Of a stretch of DNA of 64,000 bases, positions 3,701 through 53,231 are shown in pieces (within the stretch, counting starts at the first letter, position 1; each line of letters starts with the position of its first letter). The notes under the pieces are model-generated. The model ran no database searches. It saw only the letters and a program-made list of their open reading frames with translations, and was not told where the DNA came from. A program made the position numbers and the translations under genes. The stretch is taken from positions 124,001 through 188,000 of the forward strand of contig NC_092674.1 in assembly GCF_964355755.1 (NCBI RefSeq), in the 5' to 3' direction. Origin of the DNA: Antedon mediterranea. Taxonomy: Eukaryota; Animalia; Echinodermata.

Positions 3701-6323
3701 ATATTTGATTTCAAACACAACATGTTACTTGATTATAGACATGCAAGCAATGAACACATGGAATGTAGGCTTAAAGTAGTATGTCACGCATTGTAAGAAA
3801 TGCTGCCGTACGTGAACGCAATAAAACATGCGAATTGTTGTGAAGCTTACAGATTTTCAAAATTAAAGTCGTGTAAACATTAATCAAATTGTCAATTAAG
3901 TAGTCATAATCACGTACAGTTTCAAAATGGAATACACACGGGTACCATTCCCTTGGGTAAGAGACTACTCATGACGTGTTTGTTTTTTATCTCGTTCCTA
4001 CCACGGTAATTTGAAATTCAGGAGGATAGATTAACACAAAAGTAGCAAGCAATGTAAACTTTAAAAGCTGCTGTATCCAACGTGAAAGCATTCAATATTC
4101 ACAATCATCTATAAGTTTCATTCTTCTTAAAATAACTGCAGATCATTTATGAATTATTTATTAATCAGATGGAGTTCTTTTCAATACCAATTTTAGTAGC
4201 AGTGTATTCAATATTTTTAGGTACGTGATGATAAAATGATTGTCGAATACAAGAATAAGATCCAGAAATTTTAAAATGCAAATTAATGTCATATTATTGT
4301 AGTGTCTGATATAGAAACATGAGAATAAAATAGAATGTTGGCTATTGTTACATTATAAAACTATTGTTTGTTTTGTTTATCTAATGTGAATCAAATAGAT
4401 TAATAATTCAAGTGTAGGCATATGTATTTAAAAATCACTCCCCTTGATTAATGGAATATTAATTGGTTTGTGTGGTCACAATTAAGTATTTGTACAGTAG
4501 GCCTATTCTATACTATTTTGTTAGTTGAATTGTTTATTTTTTGGCATCTCATTTCCGATCCTGACTAACACTGATAAAGAGCACATTCGAAATTGTCTAT
4601 CAGCTTTAAAATTCCAAAAACACTTTAATTATAGTGATCAATTCAAATTTGTTAAAAACAATCCCGAGGGCTATAAGACGATTGGTATAGTTTAATTTTC
4701 TTCAAAAATCAAAGTCGTAAACGCAGAAAGAAGTTCTCTCTAAGGACCTTCGATAAATTTACTTTTGTGCGTTTTGGTACATAATCTAATGATATAGATT
4801 TGAATTCACGCTTGACTTGTTTCAAAGAACTCGTTTGCATTTTGGTCCTTACACTTCGATTGTTACATTCATGTACAGTATGGTTCGCTTAGTAATGATT
4901 TGATTACAAAACATCTTAAAGGATAATATTTATTATTTGAGTTCTTTTAGTGTTTTATAATAACATTGTATTTTACCAATATTACCAAAATAAGTTATTG
5001 AATTGATTGATTATAAACAAGACTTTGTTAGGCCGCAATGTTAACATTGATAAGTAACAGCAAATGTGGCGCAATAATTGATGCAAATTGATAGCAAGTT
5101 GTGCAGTTCTATTAATATTTAGATTGTGTTCACACAATTTGGATGGTGCACACCTATGGACAATACACCTCTTTCATTACATAAGACAATCAATTAGTCT
5201 GTATTAAGCTCACATAGGTCATACTGTTCAAATACAACACACTTCAATCAATCAAATTTATTCTAATTTTGTTTCAGTTGCTTCTTTTTTAAATATAAGA
5301 GCGTATATTAGAAAGAATATAAAGGAGAATATAATATTTAATAAATTATGCTCACTTCTGATGTGTTTATAAAAGGGAAGTTTCAAAGTGGTTATTGTCA
5401 GAAGCATTAAACTGACTTGCGTAGTTAACACGTAGTGTTGCGAACAAAAACTATCACGAGAACAAAAATACAAATTGTACAGGTGTTATTGCTTGAAGGT
5501 CAGTCGAGAATGGGCTTAATAATCACACCGCATAAAATCCCCAGATTCCAAAGTGTTAAAACAATGTCCATTTAGACACAACGGTTAGCTGTATAAAATC
5601 ATAACATATTGCTAGTTATCCCGCAGTTGCTTGCTATCATATAGACGTTATTCACACTCTTAATTTCGTAAATGTCACCAAGTTGTCTAGCAATGTCCAT
5701 TTTATAGAACAACCTCATATATTATTTAAATGAATTTATTTAAAATATAAAGGATGCGCAACGTGAACATTCGTGCGTCAAAACATAGTCATCATCACAC
5801 TAAGCCTATTAAACAAAAGAAATTCCAGAAGTAATTATAATATTGTCAGAAAGATATGGCAAGCCTCAGCTGTCTGAAGTATTCAAAATATTATATTATT
5901 ATATCATTTTTTTATTGTATTATATATTGTATTGTAATGAATTATACGTTTTGCATTATATTACTTGGTTTTACCATTATATTATATCTATTTCTAATAT
6001 ATTATGTGAAAAATGTAACAAATTATTGACTTTTTGTATTATATTATTTGGTTTTAGCATTATATTATGAACATTTAATATTATATTATTAATAAAATAC
6101 ATTATATTATAATATAATTGTATTATATTAAACGCATTTACTTTACTTTATAACATACAACATTATTATATTATACGGATTCGTTAGTTATATTATTATG
6201 TTGTATGATGTTTATTATACGTCACGGCTTATTTCAGTTCTTCTAACTCTTTCTCTCCCTCCCCCTGTTCACTAGCAATCAGCGGCCGGCAGAATCTGAA
6301 TTGTGTGACTGTTGAAGAATAAC

Positions 6324-6647
6324 TACGTACTAGGCCTAGGCCTAGCCTAGGCCTACTAGGGGATCTAGACAAGTGACCAAGGATCACTGGACAGCTACAA
6401 CTAATACTACAATACAATAATACTACTACAATAACTACTACTGCTACTACCTAGGCCTAGCTAGTGAGTAGTAGGTAGCTACTACTAGGCTCTAGGGCGT
6501 ATGTATGATGTTAACTACTAGGTAGGGCCTAGGGCTAGGCCTAACTAGAGGCCTACTAGTACTAGGCTAGGCCTAGACTTAAGTTGTAGTAGGCTAGGGC
6601 CGGGCCTGCTGCCTTAGGCTAGGCTACTACTACTACTACTACTAGGC
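6324..6647. repeat. TAGGCCTA/CTAG/(TAC)n low-complexity tract, present in every arm of the giant palindrome
   Basis: Built largely from TAGGCCTA, CTAG, TAC and TAG words. Its length varies between the eight arms. Confidence 0.85.
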
Positions 6648-6653
6648 AGCCCA

Positions 6654-6753
6654 TGATGGGTACAAGTAAGCCAAAATTTTGGATATATGTAAACCAAAAT
6701 TTGGGTACGAGCGTGTTGGCATGGCATGCATGGGTACGGGTTAACCTGTATCC
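6654..6753 (-). mobile_element. Captured terminal fragment of the GGTCAACCCGTACCC-repeat transposon family, fixed in all arms
   Basis: The consensus reverse complement reads GGATACAGGTCAACCCGTACCCATGCC...CTCGTACCCAAATTTTGG...TTTTGGCTTACTCGTACCCATCA, matching the left end of the nested element at 30280. Confidence 0.75.
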
Positions 6754-9700
6754 TTCTAGCTAATCGTACTATGCCTAGGCCTCAAGTAAGTCTACGCTAC
6801 CCAGTCCGGCTACAATATGGTCTATTTTGTTTTATAGCTTTATTGATAGGTGGGTTCAAATCTGGGTTGGGACGGCTTTTTCTCATTCTAAAACAGATTT
6901 CCTTATAATAAAATAATATATGAATTTATTTGTAATATTGTAATGTATACATAATATAAGTAATTGCCATTGCCTTTATTACTATTAATTATGTATTATA
7001 CGGTTACCCCTTAATTATACTATAGTATAATTTCCTTGTTATATTTTACAATATTTTCTTCCTAATTCTACAATTTTGTCTTTCACAGCACAAATTTATC
7101 ATACTGAATCATCACACACCAAGTCTCATAAATCTCTACTGTATTTGTCCAAGCTACTCCAGCTACATGGTATTGCCTTGAGGCTAAACTACACGGTATA
7201 CTGGCACTACCATCATTCCTGGCTCGTCAACCTGTACCACATTAGCACAGTTTCAGTTTCAGTTTATTTACCATTTCAATTTCTGAACATAAGAGATGAA
7301 CATCTTATATGGATGAATAACCGTAAGAGCGAAAGCTCGTTTACCAGTCACCCGTTAGTGCAGTGACATTACAGACAACATAAAGACAGGACAAAGGTGC
7401 AATACTTAACAAGACATGTGAACAGTTGTGTTTGCAACCCCTTGGATAAAATAATATATTTATATAATGGAGAAAGTTAGATATTATAATATTTCTTTTT
7501 GATCATACAATGATAATTTTTAAATTACTTCTTAAGAAGTCATACTACTGATTCAAAATAGTGACTTACACCCTGTGGTCAAGGCTTTCTTTGCTCTTAT
7601 GCTTATTTCCTCCAACATACAGAGTAAATAGGACTTTTTTTATTCATAACTGTTGAATTGTTTCCCAATACATAGTACCTATTGGTATTATATCTAAAAA
7701 TACAAAGGCGGCTAACACAGATAGTTCCATATATACAGTACTCTTTTATAAATAAATGTATCTCTCCAAACTACTCCCAACTACCTAATCTAATAATAGT
7801 ACTATTAGCATACTACTATACACTTTGTAGACAAGAAATAAGTTGTATACACTAGAGGACTTATGGTAGTACAGTCGATCGCCCTCTCACTGGCCCGGTC
7901 AACATAATCTATACCTAGATTATTACAGTAATTAAAGTACATTATTACAGAGTTTTTTTTTTTTTGCAGAAATCAAATTTATGTGTATAGAAAGCAGTAC
8001 TTGTATTAAAAAACTAAGCAGGTTTTTGAACGCAGACTGGCAGGATATTTTGAATATTTTTTGTTGTTGAAATGATGGAATCCTAACTTCAATTTCCACG
8101 AACCCTTTTATTTAAATTTATTTGAATAGACCTCCATGTAAACTCATTAAAGGCTACATGATTGTTTTATATTTTAATATGTGATAGTAGAAAATCATTG
8201 TGTATAATGAGGACTATGAATCTGATATTTACTTGCATTCTCATCTTTTTAAATTATTATTTATAATGCCGGTAATGAGTTTAAAATTTAATTATATTGA
8301 CTATTTTTGATAATCATCATGTCCTTATAAATTCATTTATATTTCTTTTGTGTAATATAGTTCATATATTATGTATTAAGTAAATTGGTAAGGCCCTATA
8401 CTGTTACTATTTAAGGAAAGTTTATATACACTATTATTTTATGCCTACCAATATTAGTATTAATTGTTTATGTAAATATTTTGTCTAATTGCCTTGATTT
8501 TTTGTATAGGCCAATGGCATCAATGTTTTTCTCAAAGCAAATTAGCCTAATAATGCCACATTTAGACTCATGATTCATTGATTTCTGATATTCTGTACTT
8601 GTGTATGCATTACTAAAATAGTAGTTAATATATTTCATTTATAATGTATGTATAAACATATATTCATATTTTTTTAAACATTTTTAAATTTAAAAATTAT
8701 TACAATACCTATCTACCTTTCTGATATTGTTACTATTATATAATATTTTTTGAGGCAGCAATAAAAAAAAAATTAGAACAATTAATTTGAGTTATACTGT
8801 ACTATGTTAGTTCAGGAGATGAAGTGTGTGTGGGCAGAAACTAGTGTGTTGGAGGTTGGTGGTGTGAGGTGTATAGTTTAGTTGTCACTTTAAGATCTAA
8901 ATTAGATGTTTTCTGAAGAAAAGAAGTAAGCGCATACGCTTTCAAACAACTCCAAGAAGATTCACACAAAAATAATTACTTTCCAATAAAGTAGTATAAC
9001 AGTGTATATTACAGTACATTGAATAAACTCGAGCGGAATAATAACGCACATAAAAAAACATTCATTTTCTTTTCGAAAAGTGCCCTCTCTAATTTTCTAT
9101 TAATTTATTAATAATTATTATTAATTAATGAGTAATATGAACATATTTTTAACATTCAATGCTGGAAGCTGGTTCTACTCCTAACAAAGTTTCATATCTC
9201 CAAATTTCATCAACGTATTCAAAGCACTTCAATATTAAATATCACATTTAACATAAAAATTCGGGTTTTGGATAGAATTTTGCTTAAAAACATATACAAA
9301 AAACATCGATAAAAAATACTTTTCGTATTCAAAAACATTTGATACTTGGTATAAATGTTCACTATAGGTTGTTCTATTCACAGAAAAAAATTGCATTCAT
9401 GAACGTTTTTTGTTGGTTGTTTTTTTCAAAATAGTTATTAGCTTGAAAAAAATGAGTTGGAATTGTATGGTCTTTCATAAGTGTACATTTTGTAAAAACG
9501 TAAATTTAAAAAATCAGTGATATGGCTTGATAGTTATTTTTGGTTTGCAATATGGATGGAGCAACCTATATTGAACATTTATACCAAGTATCAAATGTTT
9601 TTGAATACGAAAAGTATTTTTTATCGATGTTTTTTGTATATGTTTTTAAGCAAAATTATATCCAAAACCTGAATTTGTAATGTTAAATGTAATTTATTTA

Positions 9701-12700
9701 AGTGCTTTGAATACGTTGATGAAATTTGGAGATATGAAACTTTGTTAGGAGTAGATACAGTTTCCAGCATTAAATTTTAAAAATATGTTCATATTACTCA
9801 TTAATTGATAATAATTATTAATAAATTAATAGAAAACTAGAGAGGGCACTTTTCGACAAGAAAATGAATGTTTTTTATGTGTGTTATTATTCCGCTCGAG
9901 TTTATTCAATGTACTGTAATATACACTGTTATACTATTTTATTGGAAAGTAATTATTTTTGTGTGAATCTTCTTGGAGTTGTTTGAAAGCGTATCCGCTT
10001 ACTTCTTTTCTTCAGAAAACATCTAATTTAGGTCTTAAAGTGACAACTGTACACCTCACACCACCAACCTCCAACACACTAGTTTCTGCCCACACACACT
10101 TCATCTCCTGAACTAACATAGTACAGTATAAGTCAAATAAATTTTTTAATTTTTTTTATTGCTGCCTCAAAAAATATTATATAATAGTAACAATATCAGA
10201 AAGGTAGATAGGTATTGTAATAATTTTTAAATTTAAAAATGTTACAAAAAATATGAAATGAATATATGTTTATACATACATTATAAATGAAATATATTAA
10301 CTACTGTTTTAGTAATGCATACACAAGTACAGAATATCAGAAATCAATGAATCATGTGTCTAAATGTGGCATTATTAGGCTAATTTGCTTTGAGAAAAAC
10401 ATTGATGCCATTGGCCTATAAAAAAATCAAGGCAATTAGACAAAATATTTACATAAACAATTAATACTAATATTGGTAGGCATAAAATAATAGTGTATAT
10501 AAACTTTCCTTAAATAATAACAGTATAGGGCCTTACCAATTTATTTAATACATAATATATGAACTATATTACACAAAAAAAGTATAAATGAATTTATAAG
10601 GACATGATGATTATCAAAAATAGTCAATATAATTAAATTTTAAACTCATTACCGGCATTATAAATAATATTTTAAAAAGATAAGAATGCAAGAAAATATC
10701 AGATTCATAGTCCTCATTATACACAATGATTTCCTACTATCACATATTAAAATATAAAACAATCATTTAGCCTTTAATGACTTTACATGGAGGTCTATTC
10801 AAATAAATTTAAATAAAAGGGTCATAATATGTCTTCGTCTCCAGTTCGTGGAAATTGAAGTTAGGATTCCATCATTTCAACAACAAAAAATATTCAAAAT
10901 ATCCTGCCAGTTTGCATTCAAGACCTGCAACCTGCTTAGTTTTTAATACGAGTACTGCTTTCTATACACATAACTTTGATTTCTGCAAAAAAAAACAAAA
11001 CTCTGTAATTATGTACTTTAATTACTGTAATAATCTAGGTATAGATTATGTTTACCGGGCCAGTGAGAGGGCGTTCGACTGTACTACCATAAGTCCTGTA
11101 GGTGTATACAACTTATTTCTTGTCTACAAAGTGTATAGTAGTATGCTAATAGTACTATTATTAGATTAGGTAGTTGGGAGTAGTTTGGAGAGATACATCT
11201 ATCTATAAAAGAGTACTGTATATATGGAACTATCTGTGTTAGCCGCCTTTGTATTTTTAGATATAATACCAATACTAAAAGTCCTATGTACTCTGTATGT
11301 TGGAGGAAATACGCATAAGAGCAAATAAAGCCTTGACCACAGGGTGTAAGTCACTATTTTGAATCAGTAGTATGACTTCTTAAGAAGTAATTTAAAAATT
11401 ATCATTGTATGATCAAAAAGAAATATTATAATATCTAACTTTCTCCTTTATATAAATATATTATTTTATCCAAGGGGTTGCAAACACAAGTGTTCACATG
11501 TCTTGTTAAGTATTGCACCTTTGTCCTGTCTTTATGTTGTCTGTAATGTCACTGCACTAACGGGTGACCGGTAAACGAGCTTCGCTCTTACGGTTATCCA
11601 TCCATATAAGTTGTTCATCTCTTATGTTCAGAAATTGAAATGGTAAATAAACTGAAACTGTGCTTATGTGGTACAGGTTGACGAGCCAGGAATGATGGTA
11701 GTGCCAGTATACCGTGTAGTTTAGCCTCAAGGCAATACCATGTAGCTGGAGTAGCTTGGACAAATACAGTAGAGATTTATGAGACTTGGTGTGTGATGAT
11801 TCAGTATGATAAATTTGTGCTGTGAAAGACAAAAGTAGAATTAGGAAGAAAATATTGTAAAATATAACAAGGAAATTATACTATAGTATAATTAAGGGGT
11901 AACCGTATAATACATAATTAATAGTAATAAAGGCAATGGCAATTACTTATATTATGTATACATTACAATAATATTACAAATAAATTCATATATTATTTTA
12001 TTATGATAAGGAAATCTGTTTTAGAATGAGAAAAAGCCGTCCCAACCCAGATTTGAACCCAGCTATCAATAAAGCTATAAAACAAAATAGACCATATTGT
12101 AGCCGGACTGGGTAGCGTAGACTTACTTGAGGCCTAGGCATAGTACGATTAGCTAGAAGGATACAGGTCAACCCGTACCCATGCCATGCCAACACGCTCG
12201 TACCCAAATTTTGGTTTACATATATCCAAAATTTTGGCTTACTCGTACCCATCATGGGCTGCCTAGTAGTAGTAGTAGTAGTAGCCTAGCCTAAGGCAGC
12301 AGGCCCGGCCCTAGCCTATCTACTACAACTTAAGTCTAGGCCTAGCCTAGTACTAGTAGGCCTCTAGGCCTGGCCTAGGCCCTAGTAGTTAACATCATAC
12401 ATACGCCCTAGAGCCTAGTAGTAGCTACCTACTACTCACTAGCTAGGCCTAGGTAGTAGCAGTAGTAGTTATTGTAGTAGTATTATTGTATTGTAGTATT
12501 AGTTGTAGCTGTCCGGTGATCCTTGGTCACTTGTCTAGATCCCCTAGGCTAGGCCTAGTACGTTATTCTTCAACAGTCACAATTCAGATTCTGCCGGCCG
12601 CTGATTGCTAGTGAACAGGGGGAGGGAGAGAAAGAGTTAGAAGAACTGAAATAAGCCGTGACGTATAATAAACATCATACAAAATAATAATATAACTAAC

Positions 12701-13125
12701 GAATCCGTATAATATAATAATGTTGTATGTTATAAAGTAAAGTAAATGCGTTTAATATAATACAATTATATTATAATATAATGTATTTTATTAATAATAT
12801 AATATTAAATGTTCATAATATAATGCTAAAACCAAATAATATAATACAAAAAGTCAATAATTTGTTACATTTTTCACATAATATATTAGAAATAGATATA
12901 ATATAATGCTAAAACCAAGTAATATAATGCAAAACGTATAATTCATTACAATACAATATATAATATAATAAAAAAATGATATAATAATATAATATTTTGA
13001 ATACTTCAGACAGCTGAGGCTTGCCATAGAAAGACATTCCAAACGTTGGTTTAATTCATAGCTGAAGTATAACTCATAATTCATAATTTACAGCTTTCTC
13101 TTCGCACGCAAAATAAACATTACTG

Positions 13126-13868
13126 TATTTGTTTCATATGCACGTATAATGTTGTTTGTTGTTGCAGTATATAGCTTATTTGTTTCATATGCACGTATAA
13201 TGTTGTTTGTTGTTGCACTTTAAAGCTTATTTGTTTCATATGCACGTATAATGTTGTTTGTTGTTGCAGTATATAGCTTATTTGTTTCATATGCACGTAT
13301 AATGTTGTTTGTTGTTGCACTTTATAGCTTATTTGTTTCATATGCACGTATAATGTTGTTTGTTGTTGCAGTATATAGCTTATTTGTTTCATATGCACGT
13401 ATAATGTTGTTTGTTGCACTTTATAGCTTATTTGTTTCATATGCACGTATAATGTTGTTTGTTGTTGCAGTATATAGCTTATTTGTTTCATATGCACGTA
13501 TAATGTTGTTTGTTGTTGCAGTATATAGCTTATTTGTTTCATATGCACGTATAATGTTGTTTGTTGTTGCAGTATATAGCTTATTTGTTTCATATGCACG
13601 TATAATGTTGTTTGTTGTTGCACTTTATAGCTTATTTGTTTCATATGCACGTATAATGTTGTTTGTTGTTGCACTTTATAGCTTATTTGTTTCATATGCA
13701 CGTATAATGTTGTTTGTTGTTGCACTTTATAGCTTATTTGTTTCATATGCACGTATAATGTTGTTTGTTGTTGCAGTATATAGCTTATTTGTTTCATATG
13801 CACGTATAATGTTGTTTGTTGTTGGACTGTATAGCTTTTTTGTTTCATATGCACGTAATGTTGTTTGT
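13126..13868. repeat. Tandem minisatellite, 51-bp unit, about 14.5 copies
   Basis: Unit TATTTGTTTCATATGCACGTATAATGTTGTTTGTTGTTGCA(GTA/CTT)TATAGCT with two interspersed variants and one 48-bp unit. Confidence 0.96.
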
Positions 13869-14102
13869 CCATAATACGTAACATTATTTGGTATTTTACA
13901 TAAACGGTTGTATACTCTTACTGGAGTTATTTTTTATGGTTGTCGAAATCAATATAACTAATTGTTAAGGTTGGTTACCGTTTTAAAGGGTTATAGGCTC
14001 TACTTACCGTGTTACTCTAACACAGCACCCTCTAAAGTCTAAACAAGTTTTTTTAAACGACAATGCTTTCGTATTTTAATATTACGGTAAACTACGGAAA
14101 CT

Positions 14103-20100: not shown

Positions 20101-20977
20101 TAGGCATAGTACGATTAGCTAGAAGGATACAGGTCAACCCGTACCCATGCATGCCATGCCAACACGCTCGTACCCAAATTTTGGTTTACATATATCCAAA
20201 ATTTTGGCTTACTCGTACCCATCATGGGCTGCCTAGTAGTAGTAGTAGTAGTAGCCTAGCCTAAGGCAGCAGGCCCGGCCCTAGCCTACTACAACTTAAG
20301 TCTAGGCCTAGCCTAGTACTAGTAGGCCTCTAGGTCTAGCCTAGGCCCTAGTAGTTAACATCATACATACGCCCTAGAGCCTAGTAGTAGCTACCTACTA
20401 CTCACTAGCTAGGCCTAGGTAGTAGCAGTAGTAGTTATTGTAGTAGTATTATTGTATTGTAGTATTAGTTGTAGCTGTCCGGTGATCCTAGGCTAGGCCT
20501 AGTACGTAGTTATTCTTCAACAGTCACACAATTCAGATTCTGCCGGCCGCTGATTGCTAGTGAACAGGGGGAGGGAGAGAAAGAGTTAGAAGAACTGAAA
20601 TAAGCCGTGACGTATAATAAAAATCATACAAAATAATAATATAACTAACGAATCCGTATAATATAATAATGTTGTATGTTATAAAGTAAAGTAAATGCGT
20701 TTAATATAATACAATTATATTATAATATAATGTATTTTATTAATAATATAATATTAAATGTTCATAATATAATGCTAAAACCAAATAATATAATACAAAA
20801 AGTCAATAATTTGTTACATTTTTCACATAATATATTAGAAATAGATATAATATAATGCTAAAACCAAGTAATATAATGCAAAACGTATAATTCATTACAA
20901 TACAATATATAATATAATAAAAAAATGATATAATAATATAATATTTTGAATACTTCAGACAGCTGAGGCTTGCCATA
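14103..20977. mobile_element. Giant palindromic element, copy 2 (6875 bp, with internal deletions)
   Basis: Starts TACGGCAAGCC (one substitution) and ends GGCTTGCCATA. TSD GAAACT at 14097-14102 and 20978-20983. Spacer at about 17402-17586. Deletions near 15810 (about 210 bp) and 19670 (about 100 bp) relative to the other arms. Confidence 0.93.
14748..14771. mobile_element. Probable excision footprint or collapsed element: 8-bp TSD around GGATTCCC
   Basis: Reads ATGTTAAC-GGATTCCC-ATGTTAAC. The other seven arms have a single ATGTTAAC. Confidence 0.7.
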
Positions 20978-23900: not shown

Positions 23901-24019
23901 TAACATTTTTAAATTTAAAAATTATTACAATACCTATCTACCTTTCTGATATTGTTACTATTATATAATATTCTTTGAGGCAGCAATAAAAAAAAAATTA
24001 GAACAATTAATTTGACTTA

Positions 24020-30279: not shown

Positions 30280-32879
30280 GAATACAGGTCAACCCGTACC
30301 CATGCCAACTCGTACCCACCAACTCGTACCCAAATTTTGGCTTACTCGTACCCAAAATTTTGGCTGACCCGTACCCATCATTGGCTGACCCGTACCCATC
30401 ATTGGCTGGCCCGTACCCAAGTTTAATGCTATTTAAAGTATATTTATATTACATTTAAACCCAGTTTTATTAAATTTTTAGATACCAATCATATGTTCGA
30501 TATTATAATGGCAAAAACTATTGACCTAAAATGTATAATAATATGTACAGACTCGTACGTAAAAAGCACAGCTTTCATCGTATTTGCGTACGTCGTATTT
30601 GGTAAAGTTAATACTTGAGGGCGCTGTTTTATATGGCTCTGTGGAAGATGTCAGTGGTCGGCTGTGCTGCATTCTATTTTTTTTTCATTTATGAGTTATT
30701 AATCTATTATTTTCTACGAATAGTAGTACACGGAAATTGAAATACCCACTAGTCTGTGATGATGAAAACTTGAATTATTAAAAGTAAACATAAATATCTT
30801 TTATACATAATTTGTATTTTCATTTTATTTTACAGATAATGAAGTAATGTGCTTTTTGAAAATCGTTTTAAAACGAATGGTTTTTGTTGTTTTGTTTTGC
30901 AAGTTTTGGAAAATATTAAACTGTTTTAACATTTCGAAAATATTTAATACATTTTTAAATAGTCACTCGTATTTTAAAATCACGAAACTATTTAAGTGGA
31001 TACCAGCCTCATTGCTGCTATGAGCATTTAGTAGTAGATTAGATTATTGCCGTTTATCTAGTATACAATGACGGATGTGAGAGTAATAATAAAAGGTAAC
31101 TACTGTACTAACCTCCAATAATTTAACATTTAATTACAAACGACGACATTTGCTGTTATTACCTTTTCATTTTATAATGATTATTACTGTATTATTATGA
31201 CTAAAAACCGAAATAAATACTACTAAAACTTAAAAAAATCATCTTATCGCTGACAGATACGTAAGAACTCAGACACGTGTAGGTAGGCCTTCAGAACGTT
31301 TATATTATTTTAGTAAATAAGACGACATCCGTTGCCATGGAAAAACGATCGTAGTTCATTTCATTTGTCTTATTTGACACATTATAGAATGCGTATTTTT
31401 TTTTAAAAAAGGGAATCCCTCGTCAGCAAAAACACGTAGCTGTAAGTTATTGAGGAAATATCTACCAAAAATGTTTAATTACCGTAAACAAACAGATAAT
31501 TTTACTGAATTATTTAAGAAAAAAAATAAATAGAAAACGATCATACGCCACATTGAACCTTTTGGACACACTACAAATGGACCCGTACAAATGCGTTTTT
31601 TTTTTTAATAATAAAGAGGAATCCCCATTCAGCAAAAACACGTAGCTGTTATAGAAGAAAATCTGCCAAAATGTTTAATTGCCTTAGGCTACAGTACGAC
31701 AGTACGTGTATATGATCATTTCACTGAATTATTAATAAATAAAATATATGGAAAATGATCATACGTCATTACTAAGTCGTCTCTTTGACGCCGGCCCTAT
31801 AAATGCGTGTTTTTTATAATAAAAGGTTAATCCCGGTCAGAAAAAACACGTAACACGAAATCTACGAGTAATTCGACCCCATAGCCCGGCAGGCTTTTCG
31901 CTTAAAACAGGGTGTTGTTAAAATATTTTTTTATTAATTAATGTTCTCTTACGTAAATAAAAAAGACACACAATCAGAATTTTTAACTTTTATACAATCA
32001 GAATTTTTAACTTTTATACAATCAGAATTTAACTTTTATACAATCAGAATTTTTAACTTTTATACATTCATAATTTTTAACTTTTATTCAATCAGAATTT
32101 TTAACTTTTATACAATCAGAATTTTTAACTTTTACACAATCAGATTGTTCAGATAGCAATTGCATTTTTATAACACTTTTGTTAACATTTTATTATACCT
32201 TATTTTTCTATGTATTTTTCTAAATTTGTTAAATGTCGGTTTTATTGTATCGTTCAAGTTGACAGGGGCTGGTCAAGCACATCACAAGATGACAGTTTTA
32301 CACTTTTGCTTTTCCGCTACTCTCCTGTTATACTTATATGTTTGTTTTTTTGCTATGTAGAAAGATTGAAAATAAAATAAATAAAATAAAATAAACATAC
32401 GTTTATAAAACTATAATACTAGATTTAAATAAATGTTAACAAATATATGCCTAATTAAACGAAGTCTACAATCAAATCAATGGTCATTTTTATTAGCACA
32501 CATTTCACCGAGACCTGTATGTAAAATAAAAAAACAATTTAAATATAAAAATATTCATACGGCAAAAGCATACCACTAGTTTTACGCCGATCAAATCATT
32601 ACAAGTAATTATTCAAATTGGGTACGAGTAGGCCAAATAATGGGTACGAGTAAGCCAAAAATGGGTACGGGTAAGCCAAAAAATGGGTACGAGTAAGCCA
32701 AATACTTGGGTACGAGTAAGCCAAATATTTAGGTACGAATTGGCATGGGTACGGGTTGGTTTGGGTACGGGTTAGCCAAAGTGGGTACGAGTTGACCAAT
32801 TATTTGGGTACGGGTTAGCCAAGTTGGGTACGAGTTGGCATGGGTACGGGTTGGTTTGGGTACGGGTTGACCAGCAGGC
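30280..32879. mobile_element. Non-autonomous DNA transposon (2600 bp) with 8-bp TSD and subterminal tandem repeats; superfamily unassigned (MULE-like style)
   Basis: TSD ATCTAGAC at 30272-30279 and 32880-32887, with the empty site in the other arms. The ends carry inverted arrays of about 22-bp (CCAAC/CTTAC)TCGTACCC units at 30287-30420 and 32618-32872. No transposase ORF. Confidence 0.88.
31971..32143. repeat. 24-bp minisatellite inside the nested element
   Basis: CAATCAGAATTTTTAACTTTTATA repeated about 7 times. Confidence 0.9.
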
Positions 32880-33964
32880 ATCTAGACAAGTGACCAAGGA
32901 TCACCGGACAGCTACAACTAATACTACAATACAATAATACTACTACAATAACTACTACTGCTACTACCTAGGCCTAGCTAGTGAGTAGTAGGTAGCTACT
33001 ACTAGGCTCTAGGGCGTATGTATGATGTTAACTACTAGGTAGGCCTAGGCTAGGCCTAGAGGCCTACTAGTACTAGGCTAGGCCTAGACTTAAGTTGTAG
33101 TAGGCTAGGGCCGGGCCTGCTGCCTTAGGCTAGGCTACTACTACTACTACTACTACTAGGCAGCCCATGATGGGTACGAGTAAGCCAAAATTTTGGATAT
33201 ATGTTAACCAAAATTTGGGTACGAGCGTGTTGGCATGGCATGGGTACGGGTTAACCTGTATCCTTCTAGCTAATCGTACTATGCCTAGGCCTCAAGTAAG
33301 TCTACGCTACCCAGTCCGGCTACAATATGGTCTATTTTGTTTTATAGCTTTATTGATAGCTGGGTTCAAATCTGGGTTGGGACGGCTTTTTCTCATTCTA
33401 AAACAGATTTCCTTATAATAAAATAATATATGAATTTATTTGTAATATTGTAATGTATACATAATATAAGTAATTGCCATTGCCTTTATTACTATTAATT
33501 ATGTATTATACGGTTACCCCTTAATTATACTATAGTATAATTTCCTTGTTATATTTTACAATATTTTCTTCCTAATTCTACAATTTTGTCTTTCACAGCA
33601 CAAATTTATCATACTGAATCATCACACACCAAGTCTCATAAATCTCTACTGTATTTGTCCAAGCTACTCCAGCTACATGGTATTGCCTTGAGGCTAAATT
33701 ACACGGTATACTGGCACTACCATCATTCCTGGCTCGTCAACCTGTACCACATAAGCACAGTTTCAGTTTCAGTTTATTTACCATTTCAATTTCTGAACAT
33801 AAGAGATGAACAACTTATGGATGGATAACCGTAAGAGCGAAGCTCGTTTACCGGTCACCCGTTAGTGCAGTGACATTACAGAAAACATAAAGACAGGACA
33901 AAGGTGCAATACTTAACAAGACATGTGAACACTTGTGTTTGCAACCCCTTGGATAAAATAATAT

Positions 33965-33998
33965 ATTTATACATGGAGTAAAGACTCCATGATTTATA
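33965..33998. mobile_element. Mini-palindrome CATGGAGTAAAGACTCCATG with 7-bp TSD
   Basis: Reads ATTTATA-CATGGAGTAAAGACTCCATG-ATTTATA. Absent from the other seven arms. Confidence 0.82.
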
Positions 33999-36900
33999 TA
34001 ATGGAGAAAGTTAGATATTATAATATTTCTTTTTGGTCATACAATGATAATTTTTAAATTACTTCTTAAGAAGTCATACTACTCATTCAAAATAGTGACT
34101 TACACCCTGTGGTCAAGGCTTTCTTTGCTCTTATGCTTATTTCCTCCAACATACAGAGTACATAGGACTTTTTTTATTCACAACTGTTGAATTGTTTCCC
34201 AATACATAGTACCTATTGGTATTATATCTAAAAATACAAAGGCGGCTAACACAGATAGTTCCATATATACAGTACTCTTTTATAAATAAATGTATCTCTC
34301 CAAACTACTCCCAACTACCTAATCTAATAATAGTACTATTAGCATACTACTATACACTTTGTAGACAAGAAATAAGTTGTATACACTAGAGGACTTATGG
34401 TAGTACAGTCGATCACTGGCCCGGTCAACATAATCTATACCTAGATTATTACAGTAATTAAAGTACATTATTACAGAGTTTTTTTTTTTTTGCAGAAATC
34501 AAAGTTATGTGTATAGAAAGCAGTACTCGTATTAAAAACTAAGCAGGTTTTTGAACGCAAACTGGCAGGATATTTTGAATATTTTTTGTTGTTGAAATGA
34601 TGGAATCCTAACTTCAATTTCCACGAACCCTTTTATTTAAATTTATTTGAATAGACCTCCATGTAAACTCATTAAAGGCTACATGATTGTTTTATATTTT
34701 AATATGTGATAGTAGAAAATCATTGTGTATAATGAGGACTATGAATCTGATATTTACTTGCATTCTCATCTTTTTAAATTATTATTTATAATGCCGGTAA
34801 TGAGTTTAAAATTTAATTATATTGACTATTTTTTATAATCATCATGTCCTTATAAATTCATTTATATTTCTTTTGTGTAATATAGTTCATATATTATGTA
34901 TTAAGTAAATTGGTAAGGCCCTATACTGTTACTATTTAAGGAAAGTTTATATACACTATTATTTTATGCCTACCAATATTAGTATTAATTGTTTATGTAA
35001 ACATTTTGTCTAATTGCCTTGATTTTTTGTATAGGCCAATGGCATCAATGTTTTTCTCAAAGCAAATTAGCCTAATAATAATGCCACATTTAGACACATG
35101 ATTCATTGATTTCTGATATTCTGTACATGTGTATGCATTACTAAAATAGTAGTTAATATATTTCATTTATAATGTATGTATAAACATATATTCATATTTT
35201 TTTTAACATTTTTAAATTTAAAAATTATTACAATACCTATCTACCTTTCTGATATTGTTACTATTATATAATATTCTTTGAGGCAGCAATAAAAAAAAAA
35301 TTAGAACAATTAATTTGAGTTATACTGTACTATGTTAGTTCAGGAGATGAAGTGTGTGTTGGAGGTTGGTGGTGTGAGGTGTATAGTTGTCACTTTAAGA
35401 CCTAAATTAGATGTTTTCTGAAGAAAAGAAGTAAGCGCATACGCTTTCAAACAACTCCAAGAAGATTCACACAAAAATAATTACTTTCCAATAAAGTAGT
35501 ATAACAGTGTATATTACAGTACATTGAATAAACTCGAGCGGAATAATAACGCACATAAAAAACATTCATTTTCTTTTCGAAAAGTGCCCTCTCTAGTTTT
35601 CTATTAATTTATTAATAATTATTATTAATTAATGAGTAATATGAACATATTTTTAACATTCAATGCTGGAAGCTGGTTCTACTCCTAACAAAGTTTCATA
35701 TCTCCAAATTTCATCAACATATTCAAAGCACTTCAATATTAAATATCACATTTAACATAAAAATTCGGGTTTTGGATAGAATTTTGCTTAAAAACATATA
35801 CAAAAAACATCGATAAAAAATACTTTTCGTATTCAAAAACATTTGATACTTGGTATAAATGTTCACTATAGGTTGCTCTATTCACAGAAAAAAATTGCAT
35901 TCATGGACGTTTTTTGTTGGTTGTTTTTTCAAAATAGTTATTAGCTTGAAAAAAATGAGTTGGAATTATATGGTCTTTCATAAGTGTACATTTTGTAAAA
36001 ACGTAAATTTAAAAAATCAGTGATATGGCTTGATAGTTATTTTTTGTTTGCAATATGGATGGAGCAACCTATATTGAACAATTATACCAAGTATCAAATG
36101 TTTTTGAATACGAAAAGTATTTTTTATCGATGTTTTTTGTATGTGTTTTTAAGCAAAATTATATCCAAAACCTGAATTTGTAATGTTAAATGTAATTTAT
36201 TTAAGTGCTTTGAATACGTTGATGAAATTTGGAGATATGAAACTTTGTTAGGAGTAGATACAGTTTCCAGCATTAAATTTTAAGAATATGTTCATATTAC
36301 TCATTAATTGATAATAATTATTAATAAATTAATAGAAAACTAGAGAGGGCACTTTTCGACCAGAAAATGAATGTTTTTTTATGTGTGTTATTATTCCGCT
36401 CGAGTTTATTCAATGTACTGTAATATACACTGTTATACTATTTTATTGGAAAGTAATTATTTTTGTGTGAATCTTCTTGGAGTTGTTTGAAAGCGTATCC
36501 GCTTACTTCTTTTCTTCAGAAAACATCTAATTTAGGTCTTAAAGTGACAACTATACACCTCACACCACCAACCTTCAACACACTAGTTTCTGCCCACACA
36601 CACTTCATCTCCTGAACTAACATAGTACAGTATAAGTCAAATAAATTTTTTAATTTTTTTTTATTGCTGCCTCAAAAAATATTATATAATAGTAACAATA
36701 TCAGAAAGGTAGATAGGTATTGTAATAATTTTTAAATTTAAAAATGTTAAAAAAAATATGAATATATGTTTATATGCCTACATACATTATAAATGAAATA
36801 TATTAACTACTATTTTAGTAATGCATACACAAGTACAGAATATCAGAAATCAATGAATCATGTGTCTAAATGTGGCATTATTAGGCTAATTTGCTTTGAG

Positions 36901-38960
36901 AAAAACATTGATGCCATTGGCCTATACAAAAATCAAGGCAATTAGACAAAATATTTACATAAACAATTAATACTAATATTGGTAGGCATAAAATAATAGT
37001 GTATATAAACTTTCCTTAAATAATAACAGTATAGGGCCTTACCAATTTATTTAATACATAATATATGAACTATATTACACAAAAAAAGTATAAATGAATT
37101 TATAAGGACATGATGATTTATCAAAAATAGTCAATATAATTAAATTTTAAACTCATTACCGGCATTATAAACAATATTTTAAAAAGATAAGAATGCAAGT
37201 AAATATCAGATTCATAGTCCTCATTATACACAATGATTTCCTACTATCACATATTAAACTATAAAACAATCATGTAGCCTTTAATTACTTTACATGGAGG
37301 TCTATTCAAATATTTAAATAAAAGGGTCATAATATGTCTTCGTCTCCAGTTCGTGGAAATTGAAGTTAGGATTCCATCATTTCAACAACAAAAAATATTC
37401 AAAATATCCTGCCAGTTTGCATTCAAGACCTGCAACCTGCTTAGTTTTTAATACGAGTACTGCTTTCTATACACATAACAAAAAAAAACAAAACTCTGTA
37501 ATAATGTACTTTAATTACTGTAATATTAATCTAGGTATAGATTATGTTGACCGGGCCAGTGAGAGTGCGATCGACTGTACTACCATAAGTCCTGTAGGTG
37601 TATACAACTTATTTCTTGTCTACAAAGTGTATAGTAGTATGCTAATAGTACTATTATTAGATTAGGTAGTTGGGAGTAGTTTGGAGAGATACATCTATCT
37701 ATAAAAGAGTACTGTATATATGGAACTATCTGTGTTAGTCGCCTTTGTATTTTTAGATATAATACCAATAGGTACTATGTATTGGGAAACAATTCAACAG
37801 TTATGAATAAAAAAAGTCCTATGTACTCTGTATGTTGGAGGAAATAAGCATAAGAGCAAATAAAGCCTTGACCACAGGGTGTAAGTCACTATTTTGAATC
37901 AGTAGTATGACTTCTTAAGAAGTAATTAAAAAAATATCATTGTATGATCAAAAAGAAATATTATAATATCTAACTTTCTCCTTTATATAAATATATTATT
38001 TTATCCAAGGGGTTGCAAACACAAGTGTTCACATGTCTTGTTAAGTATTGCACCTTTGTCCTGTCTTTATGTTTTCTGTAATGTCACTGCACTAACGGGT
38101 GACCGGTAAACGAGCTTCGCTCTTACGGTTATCCATCCATATAAGTTGTTCATCTCTTATGTTCAGAAATTGAAATGGTAAATAAACTGAAACTGAAACT
38201 GTGCTTATGTGGTACAGGTTGACGAGCCAGGAATGATGGTAGTGCCAATATACGGTGTAGTTTAGCCTCAAGGCAATACCATGTAGCTGGAGTAGCTTGG
38301 ACAAATACAGTAGAGATTTATGAGACTTGGTGTGTGATGATTCAGTATGTTAAATTTGTGCTGTGAAAGACAAAATTGTAGAATTAGGAAGAAAATATTG
38401 TAAAATATAACAAGGAAATTATACTATAGTATAATTAAGGGGTAACAGTATAATACATAATTAATAGTAATAAAGGCAATGGCAATTACTTATATTATGT
38501 ATACATTACAATATTACAAATAAATTCATATATTATTTTATTATAAGGAAATCTGTTTTAGAATGAGAAAAAGCCGTCCCAACACAGATTTGAACCCAGC
38601 TATCAATAAAGCTATAAAACAAAATAGACCATATTGTAGCCGGACTGGGTAGCGTAGACTTACTTGAGGCCAAGGCATAGTACGATTAGCTAGATTAGAA
38701 GGATACAGGTCAACCCGTACCCATGCCATGCCAACACACTCGTACCCAAATTTTGGTTTACATATATCCAGAATTTTGGCTTACTCGTACCCATCATGGG
38801 CTGCCTAGTAGTAGTAGTAGTAGTAGCCTAGCCTAAGGCAGCAGGCCCGGCCCTAGCCTACTACAACTTAAGTCTAGGCCTAGCCTAGTAGGCCTCTAGG
38901 CCTAGCCTAGATAGGCCCTAGTAGTTAACATCATACATACGCCCAGTAGTAGCTACCTAC

Positions 38961-39692
38961 GGATTAGGCCAAGTTGAGCCGCCGACAAGTTGAGCCGCCG
39001 CCAGAAAAACGTTATTTTCTATGAAACGCCAAATGCTAACTTTCGCCGGTGCTCGTTTTTTATTTAATAGAAGTTCTATTTTCATTAGGGATAACGAAGT
39101 TTATATATCACACTTTTTAGTATAGTATTAAATATTACACTTTAAAGAACTATAATATGAAAATCTGACTTGTACTTGTAGATTCCAAAATAAAAGACCT
39201 AAAACATCACCGAAAATGATCGTTTTTAGCCAAAAATGACGTAAACATGTTGCCCCCTCAGGTTAAATAATTACATAAAATCACCGTTTTTTAGGAAAAT
39301 ATTTTGTGTATTAAAATTGTAAAATTCAATAAAATATGATATTAAAAGATAGTAAATAAAAGATATTAATTATTTAACATCATTTTAAGAATATCAATAC
39401 TCTATTATATTAGTTATTTGGGTAGGCCTACACGTCCACGCGAGACAAATATAGAGTGCACGGCATTTTTACCTTGAAAGATTACTTTCCTTTGCTGTGT
39501 TGTTTATGGTGGTTCAAACCAACATTGTAGTATGTAATTATATATTATTTATTTTCATGACACAATACACATAAAGACCATGAACTTGAACACCGCTCTA
39601 ATCACTACGCGAAATGTCGTAAAAGACGCGCTGGGCGTTTCATAGAAATTACCGGCGGCTCAACTTGTCGGCGGCCCAACCGGTCATATACC
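38961..39692. mobile_element. MITE-like non-autonomous DNA transposon (732 bp) with 8-bp TSD
   Basis: TSD CTACCTAC at 38953-38960 and 39693-39700. GG...CC ends. Subterminal inverted repeat GTTGAGCCGCCGACAAGTTGAGCCGCCG / CGGCGGCTCAACTTGTCGGCGGCCCAAC. Empty site in the other arms. Confidence 0.88.
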
Positions 39693-42600
39693 CTACCTAC
39701 TACTCACTAGCTAGGCCTAGGTAGTAGCAGTAGTAGTTATTGTAGTAGTATTATTGTATTGTAGTATTAGTTGTAGCTGTCCGGTGATCCTTGGTCACTT
39801 GTCTAGATCCCCTAGTAGGCCTAGGCTAGGCCTAGTACCTAGTTATTCTTCAACAGTCACACAATTCAGATTCTGCCGGCCGCTGATTGCTAGTGAACAG
39901 GGGGAGGGAGAGAAAGAGTTAGAAGAACTGAAATAAGCCGTGACGTATAATAAACATCATACAAAATAATAATATAACTAACGAATCCGTATAATATAAT
40001 AATGTTGTATGTTATAAAGTAAAGTAAATGCGTTTAATATAATACAATTATATTATAATATAATGTATTTTATTACTAATATAATATTAAATGTTCATAA
40101 TATAATGCTAAAACCAAATAATATAATACAAAAAGTCAATAATTTGTTACATTTTTCACATAATATATTAGAAATAGATATAATATAATGCTAAAACCAA
40201 GTAATAAAATGCAAAACGTATAATTCATTACAATACAATATATAATATAATAGAAAATGATATAATAATATAATATTTTGAATACTTCAGACAGCTGAGG
40301 CTTGCCATATACTTGCCATGAATCCATAGAAGGTGCTGATGAAGACATTCTACGGCGTTTAGAGAGGGTCCCAGAATTACATGCGTCTATCTCTCAGTGG
40401 TATATCTCACTTTTAATGTAGGCTTAAAACTGCCATTATGATTTGATTTGACTTCAGATACAAAAAACAAAACAAACAAAAACCCAATCCGCTTTCAATA
40501 GTGAAATTTGCATATTGGGATCTTGTTGGCAGGAATTGATAAGTACTTTTATGCAATAAACATTGATTTAGTCACTTTAGGACTACTTTGAAAATCTTGC
40601 TGACGTCATTACGTCTATTTTTAATGAACATTTTGACCTTTACTGGGTGAAATTGACTTCTATGTTTTACTTTCGTTGATGAAGAATTGTCGCAAAATAA
40701 CAGTAGTCTAAAAATAACATAAAAAGTTTGCACAAACAATAAATGTGAATGCAATGAACGGCAGTGATTGCAATGAATTTTTGTATCGAACAATGATTGA
40801 TTTGTACAAGATTGGTGGAAGTGGATGATGTTAAACAAATCATCAGAGTAATAGTGATGATAATGGTAAACATGATTATAACGAAAATAATAAGAACATG
40901 AACGTCAACCGGTGATAAGATAGATAGAAAGATATTACTTTTGATGTTAAACTGCAATGTAGTACGGTATACAATAACAAATATGAGAGGGCCATCATAC
41001 AATATTCATACCAACTTTATTCACATCATCATACATAAATAGTACAATACAATGTATTTGTGTGTAAAAAGGAGCCAAAAAATAGCTTTCGCTAATCAAG
41101 GTTTGACTCGTGTCACAAAAAATAAATTAGTCATAATGCATACATTTTCATCTATCAACAATAATTCAATAAGAAAGAAACAGCAACTATATGAAAGAAA
41201 TAACGTAAACAAGGGCTAACAATAATATGTTTGTAAAAGTAAACATTTAACTTCATTTATGAATTTAAATCTAGAAGAGGTACATTTTATAACTAAGGGT
41301 AAATTATTCCAATGATTCGACTCGATTGCAGATGATTGTACTGTGAAATGTGGTAGAATTATAGGGAGTAAATTAATAAAAACATATACCCAACGCGAGA
41401 AAATTGGTTCCCATGTGGTAAATGCCTATTTAGTGAGAGCATGTTATGCTTTCTGAACGAATCCCAATAGGCAGACTGCAAGTTTTAGTTTATTTGTAAA
41501 ATTGCCGCAGCATGAGTTTGCTAAATCTAAATAATACAAATATTATCGGATGGTAAAATTTCACTATGAAATATTTAATAAACAGTATGCATTTTATGCT
41601 GATTCAAGTATAGTTCATTTAAGCGACACATTTGTTTCTGTATGTGTCTATTGAATTAAAATTGTCTGTTTATACGTGATTGGTTTCTTGACAAACTGAA
41701 TTACTTACTTTGTATTAGACCTACATACTAATATGTTTATAGGCACCTGACCAAGAAGGATGTATGTCTGAGACCATCAAGTGTTGACTATGTGGCATGA
41801 GGGACTGTATAGAGAGTGTGAGAGGTAAGCAGAAACCAACTTTTTAAGTCGGAAACTCAATTTAAACCAAATTAATCAGTTGTAGATTATCATCAGATTA
41901 TAACATTTCTAACAGTAATATAGTAAAAATTGTTGAGTAAACTAAAAGATTCAGGAATGTTATTTTTCTTGTACATGTATATTAGTAGCAACTGCTTCTT
42001 TAAAATACTTGAATAGAAATGATGCATTAAAGCTAAAGTATACACTTCACAGAAAGGTATTAATGAACTATGTAAAGGCATCGTATTAAAAAAAAACAAG
42101 GCTTCATGTTAAAAGCCATCGTGTTTCTTGCTGATTCAATAAATCTTACTTTTATCAGCAAAGATAGTTGTTGCCAAAAGCACATTTCATCGGCAAGGAC
42201 GGATTTGCACTTACTGTTTCTACTGTTATAGCCTACTATGTCATTATAAATTAAACATATTTTTCAAAGTGAAGACCTTTAGATTTTAACAAGAATTTTC
42301 ACTGCACTCTGTAGCTACAGAAATCCCCGATGCAACGAAAGGTGCAGAGTTAAGAAAAACCCATTGACATCAATGTCCTAATTATCCTATTCCTCGTGTG
42401 TTTTCTCAATCTATTAGTATAATGGAAACAAAATGAATTAAAGTATAATGATTGAAAATAAAATAAAGTATGGTATAAGTAAATGTCTCATCTCACTTAT
42501 ATAATAACGTGTGGTTGGTACTTTTTATTCTAAGTAACGTCATTTAGTCTTCAACACATGGACAAAAATGCATTGTCCATTTATCGATTTGTGTAATGTA

Positions 42601-53130: not shown

Positions 53131-53231
53131 GTTAATACTATGGATCTCACCTAGAATGACTTTGTCAAGATACATCACGCTCGAAAATCAAAATCTCTGA
53201 AAGGACCAACTGAAAACGACACGCACACAAA

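What the first reader, a model, noticed from the sequence alone, without database searches (positions are those of the whole stretch)
5855..40309. A 7-kb non-coding near-perfect palindrome that moves as a unit and makes 6-bp TSDs
Seen: four copies, each about 97% arm by length (two arms of about 3.5 kb plus a spacer of about 184 bp). All have the same termini TATGGCAAGCC...GGCTTGCCATA, no credible ORF, and a different exact 6-bp TSD (GAAAGA, GAAACT, CTAATG, TACTTG). Established: long TIRs with 6-bp TSDs are the hallmark of Polinton/Maverick elements, which use a retroviral-like integrase but typically begin AG and end CT. Known foldback elements of the MULE and P/Galileo types make TSDs of about 9 bp and 7 bp. 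Inference: this is a giant hairpin-type non-autonomous element that does not fit those groups and is mobilised in trans by an unidentified integrase or transposase.
Basis: partly seen in the sequence, partly recalled or inferred. Interest (0 to 1): 0.92.

Follow-up and report, generated by a model that had tools for sequence, protein, structure and literature searches.

The report
Giant hairpin IS3EU transposons crowd hotspot
Four copies of a gene-less 7-kb mirror-image jumping element sit in what was a 1.3-kb stretch of an animal chromosome, and their ends and 6-base footprints match the little-studied IS3EU transposon group, whose enzyme likely moves them, so this is an unusually large hairpin form of a known kind rather than a new kind.

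Summary
The structure is real. Four copies (A 5855-13028, B 14103-20977, C 21096-29615, D 29770-40309) each have about 3.5-kb inverted arms, a 183-185-bp spacer, TAYGG...CCATA ends and their own exact 6-bp TSD. C and D carry nested transposons. Public contigs from one sample lack the insertions at A, B and D (C by length arithmetic), each with one TSD copy. So this is most likely a non-autonomous, foldback-shaped IS3EU-type element. No partner transposase could be sought, since no genome is held. Two features add interest. Arm divergence rises from 1.4% (outer) to 5.9% (apex), pointing to repeated arm-to-arm copying. All four insertions fall within 1,328 bp of the empty haplotype, yet differ by 1.1-1.8%. 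I found no paper on foldback-shaped IS3EU, but Repbase and Dfam could not be queried. This scan already noted such elements in other genomes. Verdict: new variant of a known kind.

The parts
5855..13028 (+). Copy A, 7174 bp: left arm 5855-9374, spacer 9375-9558, right arm 9559-13028; TSD GAAAGA at 5849-5854 and 13029-13034
   Evidence: empty allele: joint 5847->13028 skipping 7180 = 7174+6 in run X1, only 30 letters on the short side
14103..20977 (+). Copy B, 6875 bp: left arm 14103-17401 (starts TACGG), spacer 17402-17586, right arm 17587-20977; TSD GAAACT at 14097-14102 and 20978-20983
   Evidence: empty allele: the 444-letter X1 contig (depth 251.1 in both calls) matches 13795-14102 and 20978-21089, overlapping by the 6 TSD letters
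21096..29615 (-). Copy C, 8520 bp (core 7192), spacer 25920-26102 in the opposite orientation to A, B and D; TSD CTAATG at 21090-21095 and 29616-29621
29770..40309 (+). Copy D, 10540 bp (core 7192), spacer 35879-36061; TSD TACTTG at 29764-29769 and 40310-40315
   Evidence: empty allele: contigs of X1 (874 letters) and X5 (1288 letters) join 29763 to 40310 with 148 and 146 letters on the two sides
5897..6173 (+). Subterminal AT-rich repeats (periods 21, 42, 83 bp) at the outer end of the arm, present in all eight arms; candidate transposase-binding domain (inferred)
6647..6751 (-). About 105-bp relic, 81% like the left end of the nested D1 element; mirrored in the right arm at about 12157-12260, so the arm was copied after the relic arrived (inferred)
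   Evidence: blastn E 3e-22; mirror seen in sequence
9157..9374 (+). Innermost 219 alignment columns of the arm: older stratum with all 10 substitutions (and 2 indels) that separate left from right arms in all four copies
24020..25347 (-). Nested non-autonomous Helitron-like element in copy C, 1328 bp: 5' TC, 3' hairpin then CTAG, inserted between A and T, no TSD (Helitron features recalled)
30280..32879 (.). Nested element D1 in copy D, 2600 bp, 8-bp TSD ATCTAGAC, subterminal inverted repeats, no Pfam hit above cut-off
38961..39692 (.). Nested element D2 in copy D, 732 bp, 8-bp TSD CTACCTAC, subterminal inverted repeats
13035..14102 (.). Target DNA between A and B (1068 bp), holds a 51-bp tandem array at 13126-13868
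20984..21095 (.). Target DNA between B and C (112 bp)
29622..29769 (.). Target DNA between C and D (148 bp)

Best explanation
This is a family of gene-less, foldback-shaped DNA transposons with TAYGG...CCATA ends and 6-bp target duplications, likely mobilised in trans by an IS3EU/GingerRoot DDE transposase encoded elsewhere in the genome. Inferred: the enzyme binds the ends and the AT-rich subterminal repeats and makes a 6-bp staggered cut at the target. Whether it excises (cut-and-paste) or copies out is unknown for this superfamily. Inferred: the palindrome arose when one end plus about 3.5 kb of neighbouring DNA was copied onto the other end during break repair, as proposed for Galileo, and arm-to-arm copying has recurred from the termini inward, stopping short of the apex. 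Inferred: the four copies are separate arrivals from already-diverged donors at one 1.3-kb hotspot, not duplicates of each other.
For: Ends: 8 of 8 fit TAYGG..CCRTA. TSD exactly 6 bp in 4 of 4. [quoted passage not shown] Repbase classifies non-autonomous elements by ends and TSD (PMC4455052). Empty alleles. No coding. Arm copying: left/right divergence 1.43% (columns 1-1830), 2.16% (1831-3440) and 5.88% (apex), while the same arm between copies stays at 1.32, 1.58 and 1.14%. All 10 fixed left/right substitutions lie in the inner 219 of 3663 columns (p about 1e-10). 17 of 20 arm-specific sites shared by A, B and D lie in the inner half (p 0.003), whereas 58 of 109 private changes lie in the outer half. 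A relic of another transposon is mirrored in both arms. TIR extension by repair from the other TIR is proposed for Galileo (PMC3573991). Hotspot: 1068+112+148 = 1328 bp; copies differ 1.06-1.75%, while flanks differ from the empty-site contigs at 1 of 1162 letters.
Against: No autonomous partner was seen: no genome is held, and the terminus scans of metagenome and viral contigs gave 2 and 1 hits with no similarity beyond about the pattern itself. The strict Repbase rule (11 terminal bases, at most 1 mismatch) is not met against the 15 fungal families seen (best 8 of 11 ungapped, 10 of 11 with one gap, compared by eye); no animal IS3EU termini were available. Published TIRs are far shorter (over 30 bp; 100-150 bp in GingerRoot). 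The match rests on 5 terminal bases plus TSD length. The empty alleles come from one sample and one study, from short-read contigs; the A joint has only 30 letters on its short side, 7 of them ambiguous. That sample may be the window's source, and contigs collapse heterozygous sites (29702 differs between its runs), so the flank divergence may be underestimated; a constrained target would also lower it. Only 2 substitutions are shared by the two arms of one copy alone (both in C), so conversion after insertion is not shown.
Confidence: 0.8

Rival explanations
1. The element is moved by an undescribed integrase-like transposase lineage that happens to share TAYGG ends and 6-bp TSDs with IS3EU/GingerRoot.
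For: No partner found; the 11-base Repbase rule is not met against the fungal families seen; arm length is far outside published IS3EU/GingerRoot TIRs.
Against: Both diagnostic features fit, including the T/C wobble at base 3. TIR length is stated not to be a reliable classifier (PMC3573991), and foldback shape is suggested to arise independently in several lineages (PMC4079207).
Confidence: 0.08
2. Origin as a composite transposon: two inverted copies of a 3.5-kb unit flank a captured spacer, as in bacterial composites (recalled), rather than one arm being copied from the other. This changes the origin, not the likely superfamily.
For: A TATGG motif begins 8 bp inside the inner end of the right arm (9551 in A), with a degenerate counterpart on the left (5 of 8 match).
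Against: Inner and outer ends share only those 5 bases; chance of such a motif within 10 bp of either inner boundary is about 0.06 (hand estimate). No solo unit lies in the window.
Confidence: 0.05
3. A non-autonomous derivative of Polinton/Maverick or Ginger2, moved by their integrase.
For: Both make 6-bp TSDs (PMC6839031); Polinton inverted repeats are said to expand (PMC3573991).
Against: Polinton ends begin AG and Ginger ends are TG..CA (PMC6839031); all 8 ends here begin TA. No Pfam hit to polymerase, integrase or capsid in the frames scanned.
Confidence: 0.05
4. The cluster arose by local hopping or duplication of one resident copy, or from insertions on different chromosomes later joined by recombination, rather than by separate arrivals on one haplotype.
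For: A, B and D share 20 arm-specific substitutions and are closer to each other (1.06-1.24%) than to C (1.58-1.75%). Local hopping is common in DNA transposons (recalled).
Against: Hopping with in-place divergence of 1% predicts about 12 flank differences in 1162 letters; 1 was seen (Poisson p 1e-4 to 7e-4), with the caveats above. Each copy has 24-31 private substitutions. Joining by recombination needs crossovers inside 112- and 148-bp intervals.
Confidence: 0.25
5. Assembly artefact (fold-back reads or collapsed repeats).
For: No read or contig laid here spans a filled junction or a whole copy.
Against: Copy-specific exact TSDs that match the single copy in empty alleles; nested insertions in one arm only; left/right diagnostic sites shared by all four copies; arms 1.6-2.3% different.
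Confidence: 0.02

Closest known systems
IS3EU/GingerRoot DNA transposons (PMC10045372, PMC12730594, PMC6839031, PMC11934779: passages read; PMC12730594 Table S1: 15 rows seen)
   Same: TA..TA ends, here TAYGG..CCRTA; 6-bp TSD without a fixed sequence; present in animals; non-autonomous families exist in Repbase (28 of 45 families not autonomous in 2022, from PMC10045372).
   Different: Arms of 3.3-3.5 kb make up 97% of the element, against TIRs of over 30 bp (fungal IS3EU) or 100-150 bp (GingerRoot); no transposase; no partner shown.
Galileo two-TIR copies and Foldback-type elements (PMC3573991: passages and whole Discussion; PMC2775673, PMC4079207: passages)
   Same: Almost all TIR, no ORF, tandem repeats in the outer arm, TIR growth attributed to repair from the other TIR, nested secondary insertions, accumulation at hotspots.
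   Different: Galileo is P superfamily with 7-bp TSDs and TIRs up to about 1.26 kb; most foldbacks are Mutator-type (Tetris 8-10-bp TSDs). Here the TSD is 6 bp, the ends are TAYGG and the arms are nearly three times longer than the longest Galileo TIR in that study.
Polinton/Maverick and Ginger2/TDD (from passages of PMC6839031)
   Same: 6-bp TSD, integrase-like chemistry (inferred).
   Different: Ends begin AG (Polinton) or TG (Ginger); Polintons carry polymerase and integrase genes; none seen here.
Double insertions and hotspots of transposons (bioRxiv 10.1101/158386, PMC2775673: passages)
   Same: Several independent insertions at one preferred site, each with its own TSD.
   Different: Four copies of one family, 112-1068 bp apart on the empty haplotype, none inside another and none sharing a TSD.

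Membership tests
IS3EU/GingerRoot | Termini TA..TA (TAYGG..CCRTA in fungal IS3EU) | tested here: met
   8 of 8 ends: 7 TATGG, 1 TACGG; definition
IS3EU/GingerRoot | 6-bp TSD | tested here: met
   4 of 4 exact at 6 bp only; single copy in empty alleles
IS3EU/GingerRoot | TIRs present, longer than 30 bp (fungal IS3EU) | tested here: met
   3.3-3.5-kb arms; definition
IS3EU/GingerRoot | DDE transposase of the IS3EU/GingerRoot clade in the element or an autonomous partner with the same ends | not testable with these tools
   element is non-coding; no genome held; terminus scans gave only chance hits
IS3EU/GingerRoot | Repbase rule for non-autonomous families: same TSD length and bases 1-11 aligned with at most 1 mismatch to a known family | tested here: inconclusive
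   rule; best of 15 fungal families seen is 8 of 11 ungapped, 10 of 11 with one gap (by eye); animal families not available
GingerRoot in the narrow sense (Selaginella) | TIRs of 100-150 bp | tested here: not met
   arms 3.3-3.5 kb; not filed under this narrow name
Polinton/Maverick | Termini beginning AG | tested here: not met
Polinton/Maverick | Polymerase and integrase genes | tested here: not met
   no Pfam hit above cut-off in 28 frames of copy A
Polinton/Maverick | 6-bp TSD | tested here: met
Ginger2/TDD | TG..CA termini | tested here: not met
Mutator-type foldbacks and Galileo (P) | TSD of 8-10 bp (Tetris) or 7 bp (Galileo) | tested here: not met
Foldback architecture (descriptive, not a lineage) | Long TIRs with tandem repeats in the outer part, short middle, no ORF | tested here: met
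   description

The most novel reading that the evidence does not exclude
IS3EU/GingerRoot has a widespread, undescribed foldback form with multi-kilobase arms kept alike by polar arm-to-arm copying, and its transposase homes to narrow sites beside, but not inside, resident copies (site targeting or target immunity), stacking four 7-kb hairpins from different donors in 1.3 kb of one haplotype. That would give a natural, polymorphic test system for how this unstudied transposase picks targets and how long palindromes persist in animal genomes.
Probability: 0.25. Interest if true: 0.72.

Novelty: new variant of a known kind. Interest (0 to 1): 0.47.

Why it matters
[quoted passage not shown] A 7-kb, 97%-palindromic form extends the foldback design to it with arms nearly three times the longest Galileo TIR in PMC3573991. 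Long inverted repeats are linked to breaks and rearrangements (PMC2775673), and a transcript through one would be predicted to form kilobases of double-stranded RNA, so a multi-copy, presence/absence family of them bears on genome stability and silencing. The arm strata record how TIRs are kept alike, and the four-copy hotspot with an intact empty allele makes target choice testable. It does not point to a new superfamily or a new chemistry.

Tried and rejected
Whole genome: none held, so no genome-wide TSD table, copy number or partner search. Terminus pattern in metagenome contigs: 2 hits (L001, GC 65%; L002, GC 40%) with no blastn match to the window at E 1e-3; rejected as chance. In viral contigs: 1 hit (L003), 20-24 letters only, no inverted partner; rejected. 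Prokaryote genome collections were not scanned. Other TAYGG..CCRTA pairs with a 6-bp TSD in the window: none credible beyond the four copies. Pfam on 97 frames (28 element, 32 nested, 37 flank): only the GPCR passes a cut-off. Rfam: one tRNA outside the element. Sequencing runs: no RNA holder listed; X2 is only guessed to be RNA and is not used as evidence of transcription. Summed contig depth is about two orders higher over the element than over the flanks in X1, but the tool states it is no copy number, so no number is given. Is the target a gene? The C-D spacer has an open frame of 51 aa: Pfam none, Atlas no named hit with recognition below threshold, and the phmmer job was still queued when I stopped, so this is open. 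CpG hypermutation as a cause of copy divergence: only 7 of 115 private changes are CpG transitions (first alignment), rejected. The first arm alignment had the D2 boundary 3 bases off; one search corrected it and one search uses the corrected file; the patterns did not change. Literature searches for a foldback or palindromic IS3EU listed none, judged from titles, abstract starts and term counts; one search listed 40 of 62 papers and 30 of 423. Searches gave context only. GingerRoot supplement held no terminal sequences. Repbase, Dfam and the 2019 Kojima review could not be read; a Repbase entry for this family or shape may exist.
Full report
Observation. A self-comparison of the window shows four copies of one element at 5855-13028 (A), 14103-20977 (B), 21096-29615 (C) and 29770-40309 (D). 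Seven ends read TATGGCAAGCC inward; the left end of B reads TACGGCAAGCC. Each copy is flanked by its own direct repeat (GAAAGA, GAAACT, CTAATG, TACTTG), exact at 6 bp and at no other length from 3 to 10. Flanks of different copies match at only 1-4 of 6 positions, and the chance of four exact matches is about 8e-14. C holds a 1328-bp Helitron-like insertion and D holds two elements of 2600 and 732 bp with 8-bp TSDs. With these removed the copies are 7174, 6875, 7192 and 7192 bp, with arms of 3299-3520 bp, a spacer of 183-185 bp and an arm fraction of 97.3-97.5%. The arms of one copy differ by 1.6-2.3% substitutions; counting gap columns they are 86-96% identical. The central 1.1 kb folds as one long DNA stem at about -480 kcal/mol (no shuffle control at this length). 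By spacer orientation A, B and D point one way and C the other. The window is 31% GC and holds a rhodopsin-type GPCR frame, so it is animal DNA.

No coding. 28 stop-to-stop frames of copy A and 32 of the nested elements gave no Pfam hit above a curated cut-off; frames of the B, C and D arms were not scanned, but those arms are 98-99% like A at aligned positions. Rfam found nothing in the element.

It moved as a unit. No genome is held, so I laid public contigs on the window. In run X1 one contig runs from 5400 to 5847 and continues at 13028, skipping 7180 bases, which is copy A plus one TSD; only 30 letters lie on the short side. A 444-letter X1 contig matches 13795-14102 and 20978-21089, the two pieces overlapping by the six TSD letters: B is absent. 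Contigs of X1 (874 letters) and X5 (1288 letters) join 29763 to 40310 with 148 and 146 letters on either side: D is absent. For C the joint itself is not listed, but 444+874-30 = 1288, and the 414 letters of the 1288-letter contig left of 29616 equal the 112+302 expected if B and C are both absent. Each empty site holds one copy of the TSD, as a pre-insertion allele should. These runs are one sample of one study, which may be the window's source, and no contig spans a filled junction or a whole copy. Contigs of two other organisms (X6, X8) also cover most of the element at 85% likeness.

Which group. The fit is IS3EU/GingerRoot. [quoted passage not shown] PMC12730594 (passages): fungal IS3EU make 6-bp TSDs and end with TAYGG..CCRTA; all 15 IS3EU rows that I saw in its Table S1, of about 27, begin TAYGG. 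PMC6839031 (passages): 72 of 77 GingerRoot copies are TA..TA with 6-bp TSDs and TIRs of 100-150 bp; Polinton ends begin AG and Ginger ends are TG..CA. PMC4455052 (passages): non-autonomous elements are classified by ends and TSD, with an 11-base rule. That strict rule is not met against the fungal families (best 8 of 11 ungapped, 10 of 11 with one gap, by eye), and animal IS3EU ends were not available. Terminus scans of metagenome and viral contigs gave three chance hits. So it works like a non-autonomous IS3EU element and is filed there provisionally; the transposase test could not be run.

How the palindrome arose and is kept. Across eight arms, left and right differ by 1.43% in columns 1-1830, 2.16% in 1831-3440 and 5.88% in the last 223 columns, while the same arm compared between copies stays at 1.32, 1.58 and 1.14%. 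All 10 substitutions that separate left from right in every copy lie in the inner 219 of 3663 columns (p about 1e-10), with two indels. A, B and D share 20 arm-specific substitutions that C lacks; 17 lie in the inner half (p 0.003), whereas private changes are even (58 of 109 in the outer half). The simplest reading is repeated copying of one arm onto the other, starting at the termini and stopping at different depths. A 105-bp relic of the D1-type transposon sits mirrored in both arms, so the arm was duplicated after it arrived. [quoted passage not shown] PMC4079207 (passages) notes that foldback structure may evolve independently in different lineages.

The hotspot. On the empty haplotype the four sites are 1068, 112 and 148 bp apart, 1328 bp in all. 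For assumed values of 300-5000 copies in 500-800 Mb, the expected number of such clusters under random insertion is 6e-9 to 2e-3 (the inputs are assumptions). The copies differ by 1.06-1.75%, yet the flanks differ from the empty-site contigs at 1 of 1162 letters, where in-place divergence after local hopping would predict about 12 (p under 1e-3). This favours separate arrivals from already-diverged donors. It is weakened if the sample carries the window's own haplotype or the target is constrained; a 51-aa open frame in the C-D spacer gave no Pfam or named Atlas hit and its phmmer job did not finish. No copy sits inside another although resident copies offered far more DNA than the 1.3-kb target (about 1e-3 by hand arithmetic if all nearby DNA were equal). 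Hotspots of secondary insertion around long-TIR elements and double insertions at preferred sites are known (PMC2775673; bioRxiv 10.1101/158386; passages), so the phenomenon is not new, though this case is extreme.

Novelty. My searches listed no paper on a foldback-shaped or palindromic IS3EU element; I judged from listings, and Repbase, Dfam and most subscription papers are outside the library. [quoted passage not shown] This scan holds no look-alike of the terminal 546 bases, but it noted foldback elements with IS3EU-type ends on other DNA before: 37 notes hold those words, in at least 4 genomes. I had reached the IS3EU reading before these look-ups and did not test those notes.

Verdict. 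New variant of a known kind; interest 0.47. The boldest reading left open, an undescribed foldback form of IS3EU that homes beside resident copies, has probability about 0.25 and would deserve about 0.72.

Noticed in passing
window 53214-54287 +: Open frame of 357 aa, rhodopsin-family GPCR (7tm_1, E 1e-57); marks the window as animal DNA.
   Followed up: partly
window 58619-58691 +: tRNA-like match, 50.4 bits, next to a tandem-repeat block at 58069-58495 that has an inverted partner at 60915-61276; possibly another TIR element.
   Followed up: no
window 29616-29768 + and 40311-40418 +: The target DNA around copies C and D has open frames of 51 and about 35 aa that look exon-like; no Pfam or named Atlas hit. 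If it is a gene, the hotspot disrupts it.
   Followed up: partly
window 9551-9558 +: A TATGG motif sits at the inner end of the right arm, just inside the spacer; weak hint of a composite origin or of a second element at the apex.
   Followed up: partly
window 24020-25347 -: Helitron-like passenger whose summed contig depth in X1 is about ten times or more that of the host element: a very abundant family.
   Followed up: partly
window 30280-32879 and 38961-39692: Two unrelated gene-less elements with 8-bp TSDs, mismatched outermost bases and subterminal inverted repeats; superfamily not determined.
   Followed up: partly
window 101-764, 13126-13868, 44328-44717, 47874-48230, 51005-51314: Short tandem arrays with units of 91, 51, 97, 69/113 and 77 bp.
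   Followed up: no
runs X6 (organism B) and X8 (organism C), laid on window 5400-14200: Contigs of two other organisms cover 28 and 22 of 30 bins at 85% likeness: the family or close relatives occur in other species.
   Followed up: partly
window 13028 and 29616, run X1: Empty-site contigs break exactly where the right junctions of A and C would rejoin, as if the filled allele were also in the run; no matching break at the left junctions. Zygosity cannot be told from contigs.
   Followed up: partly
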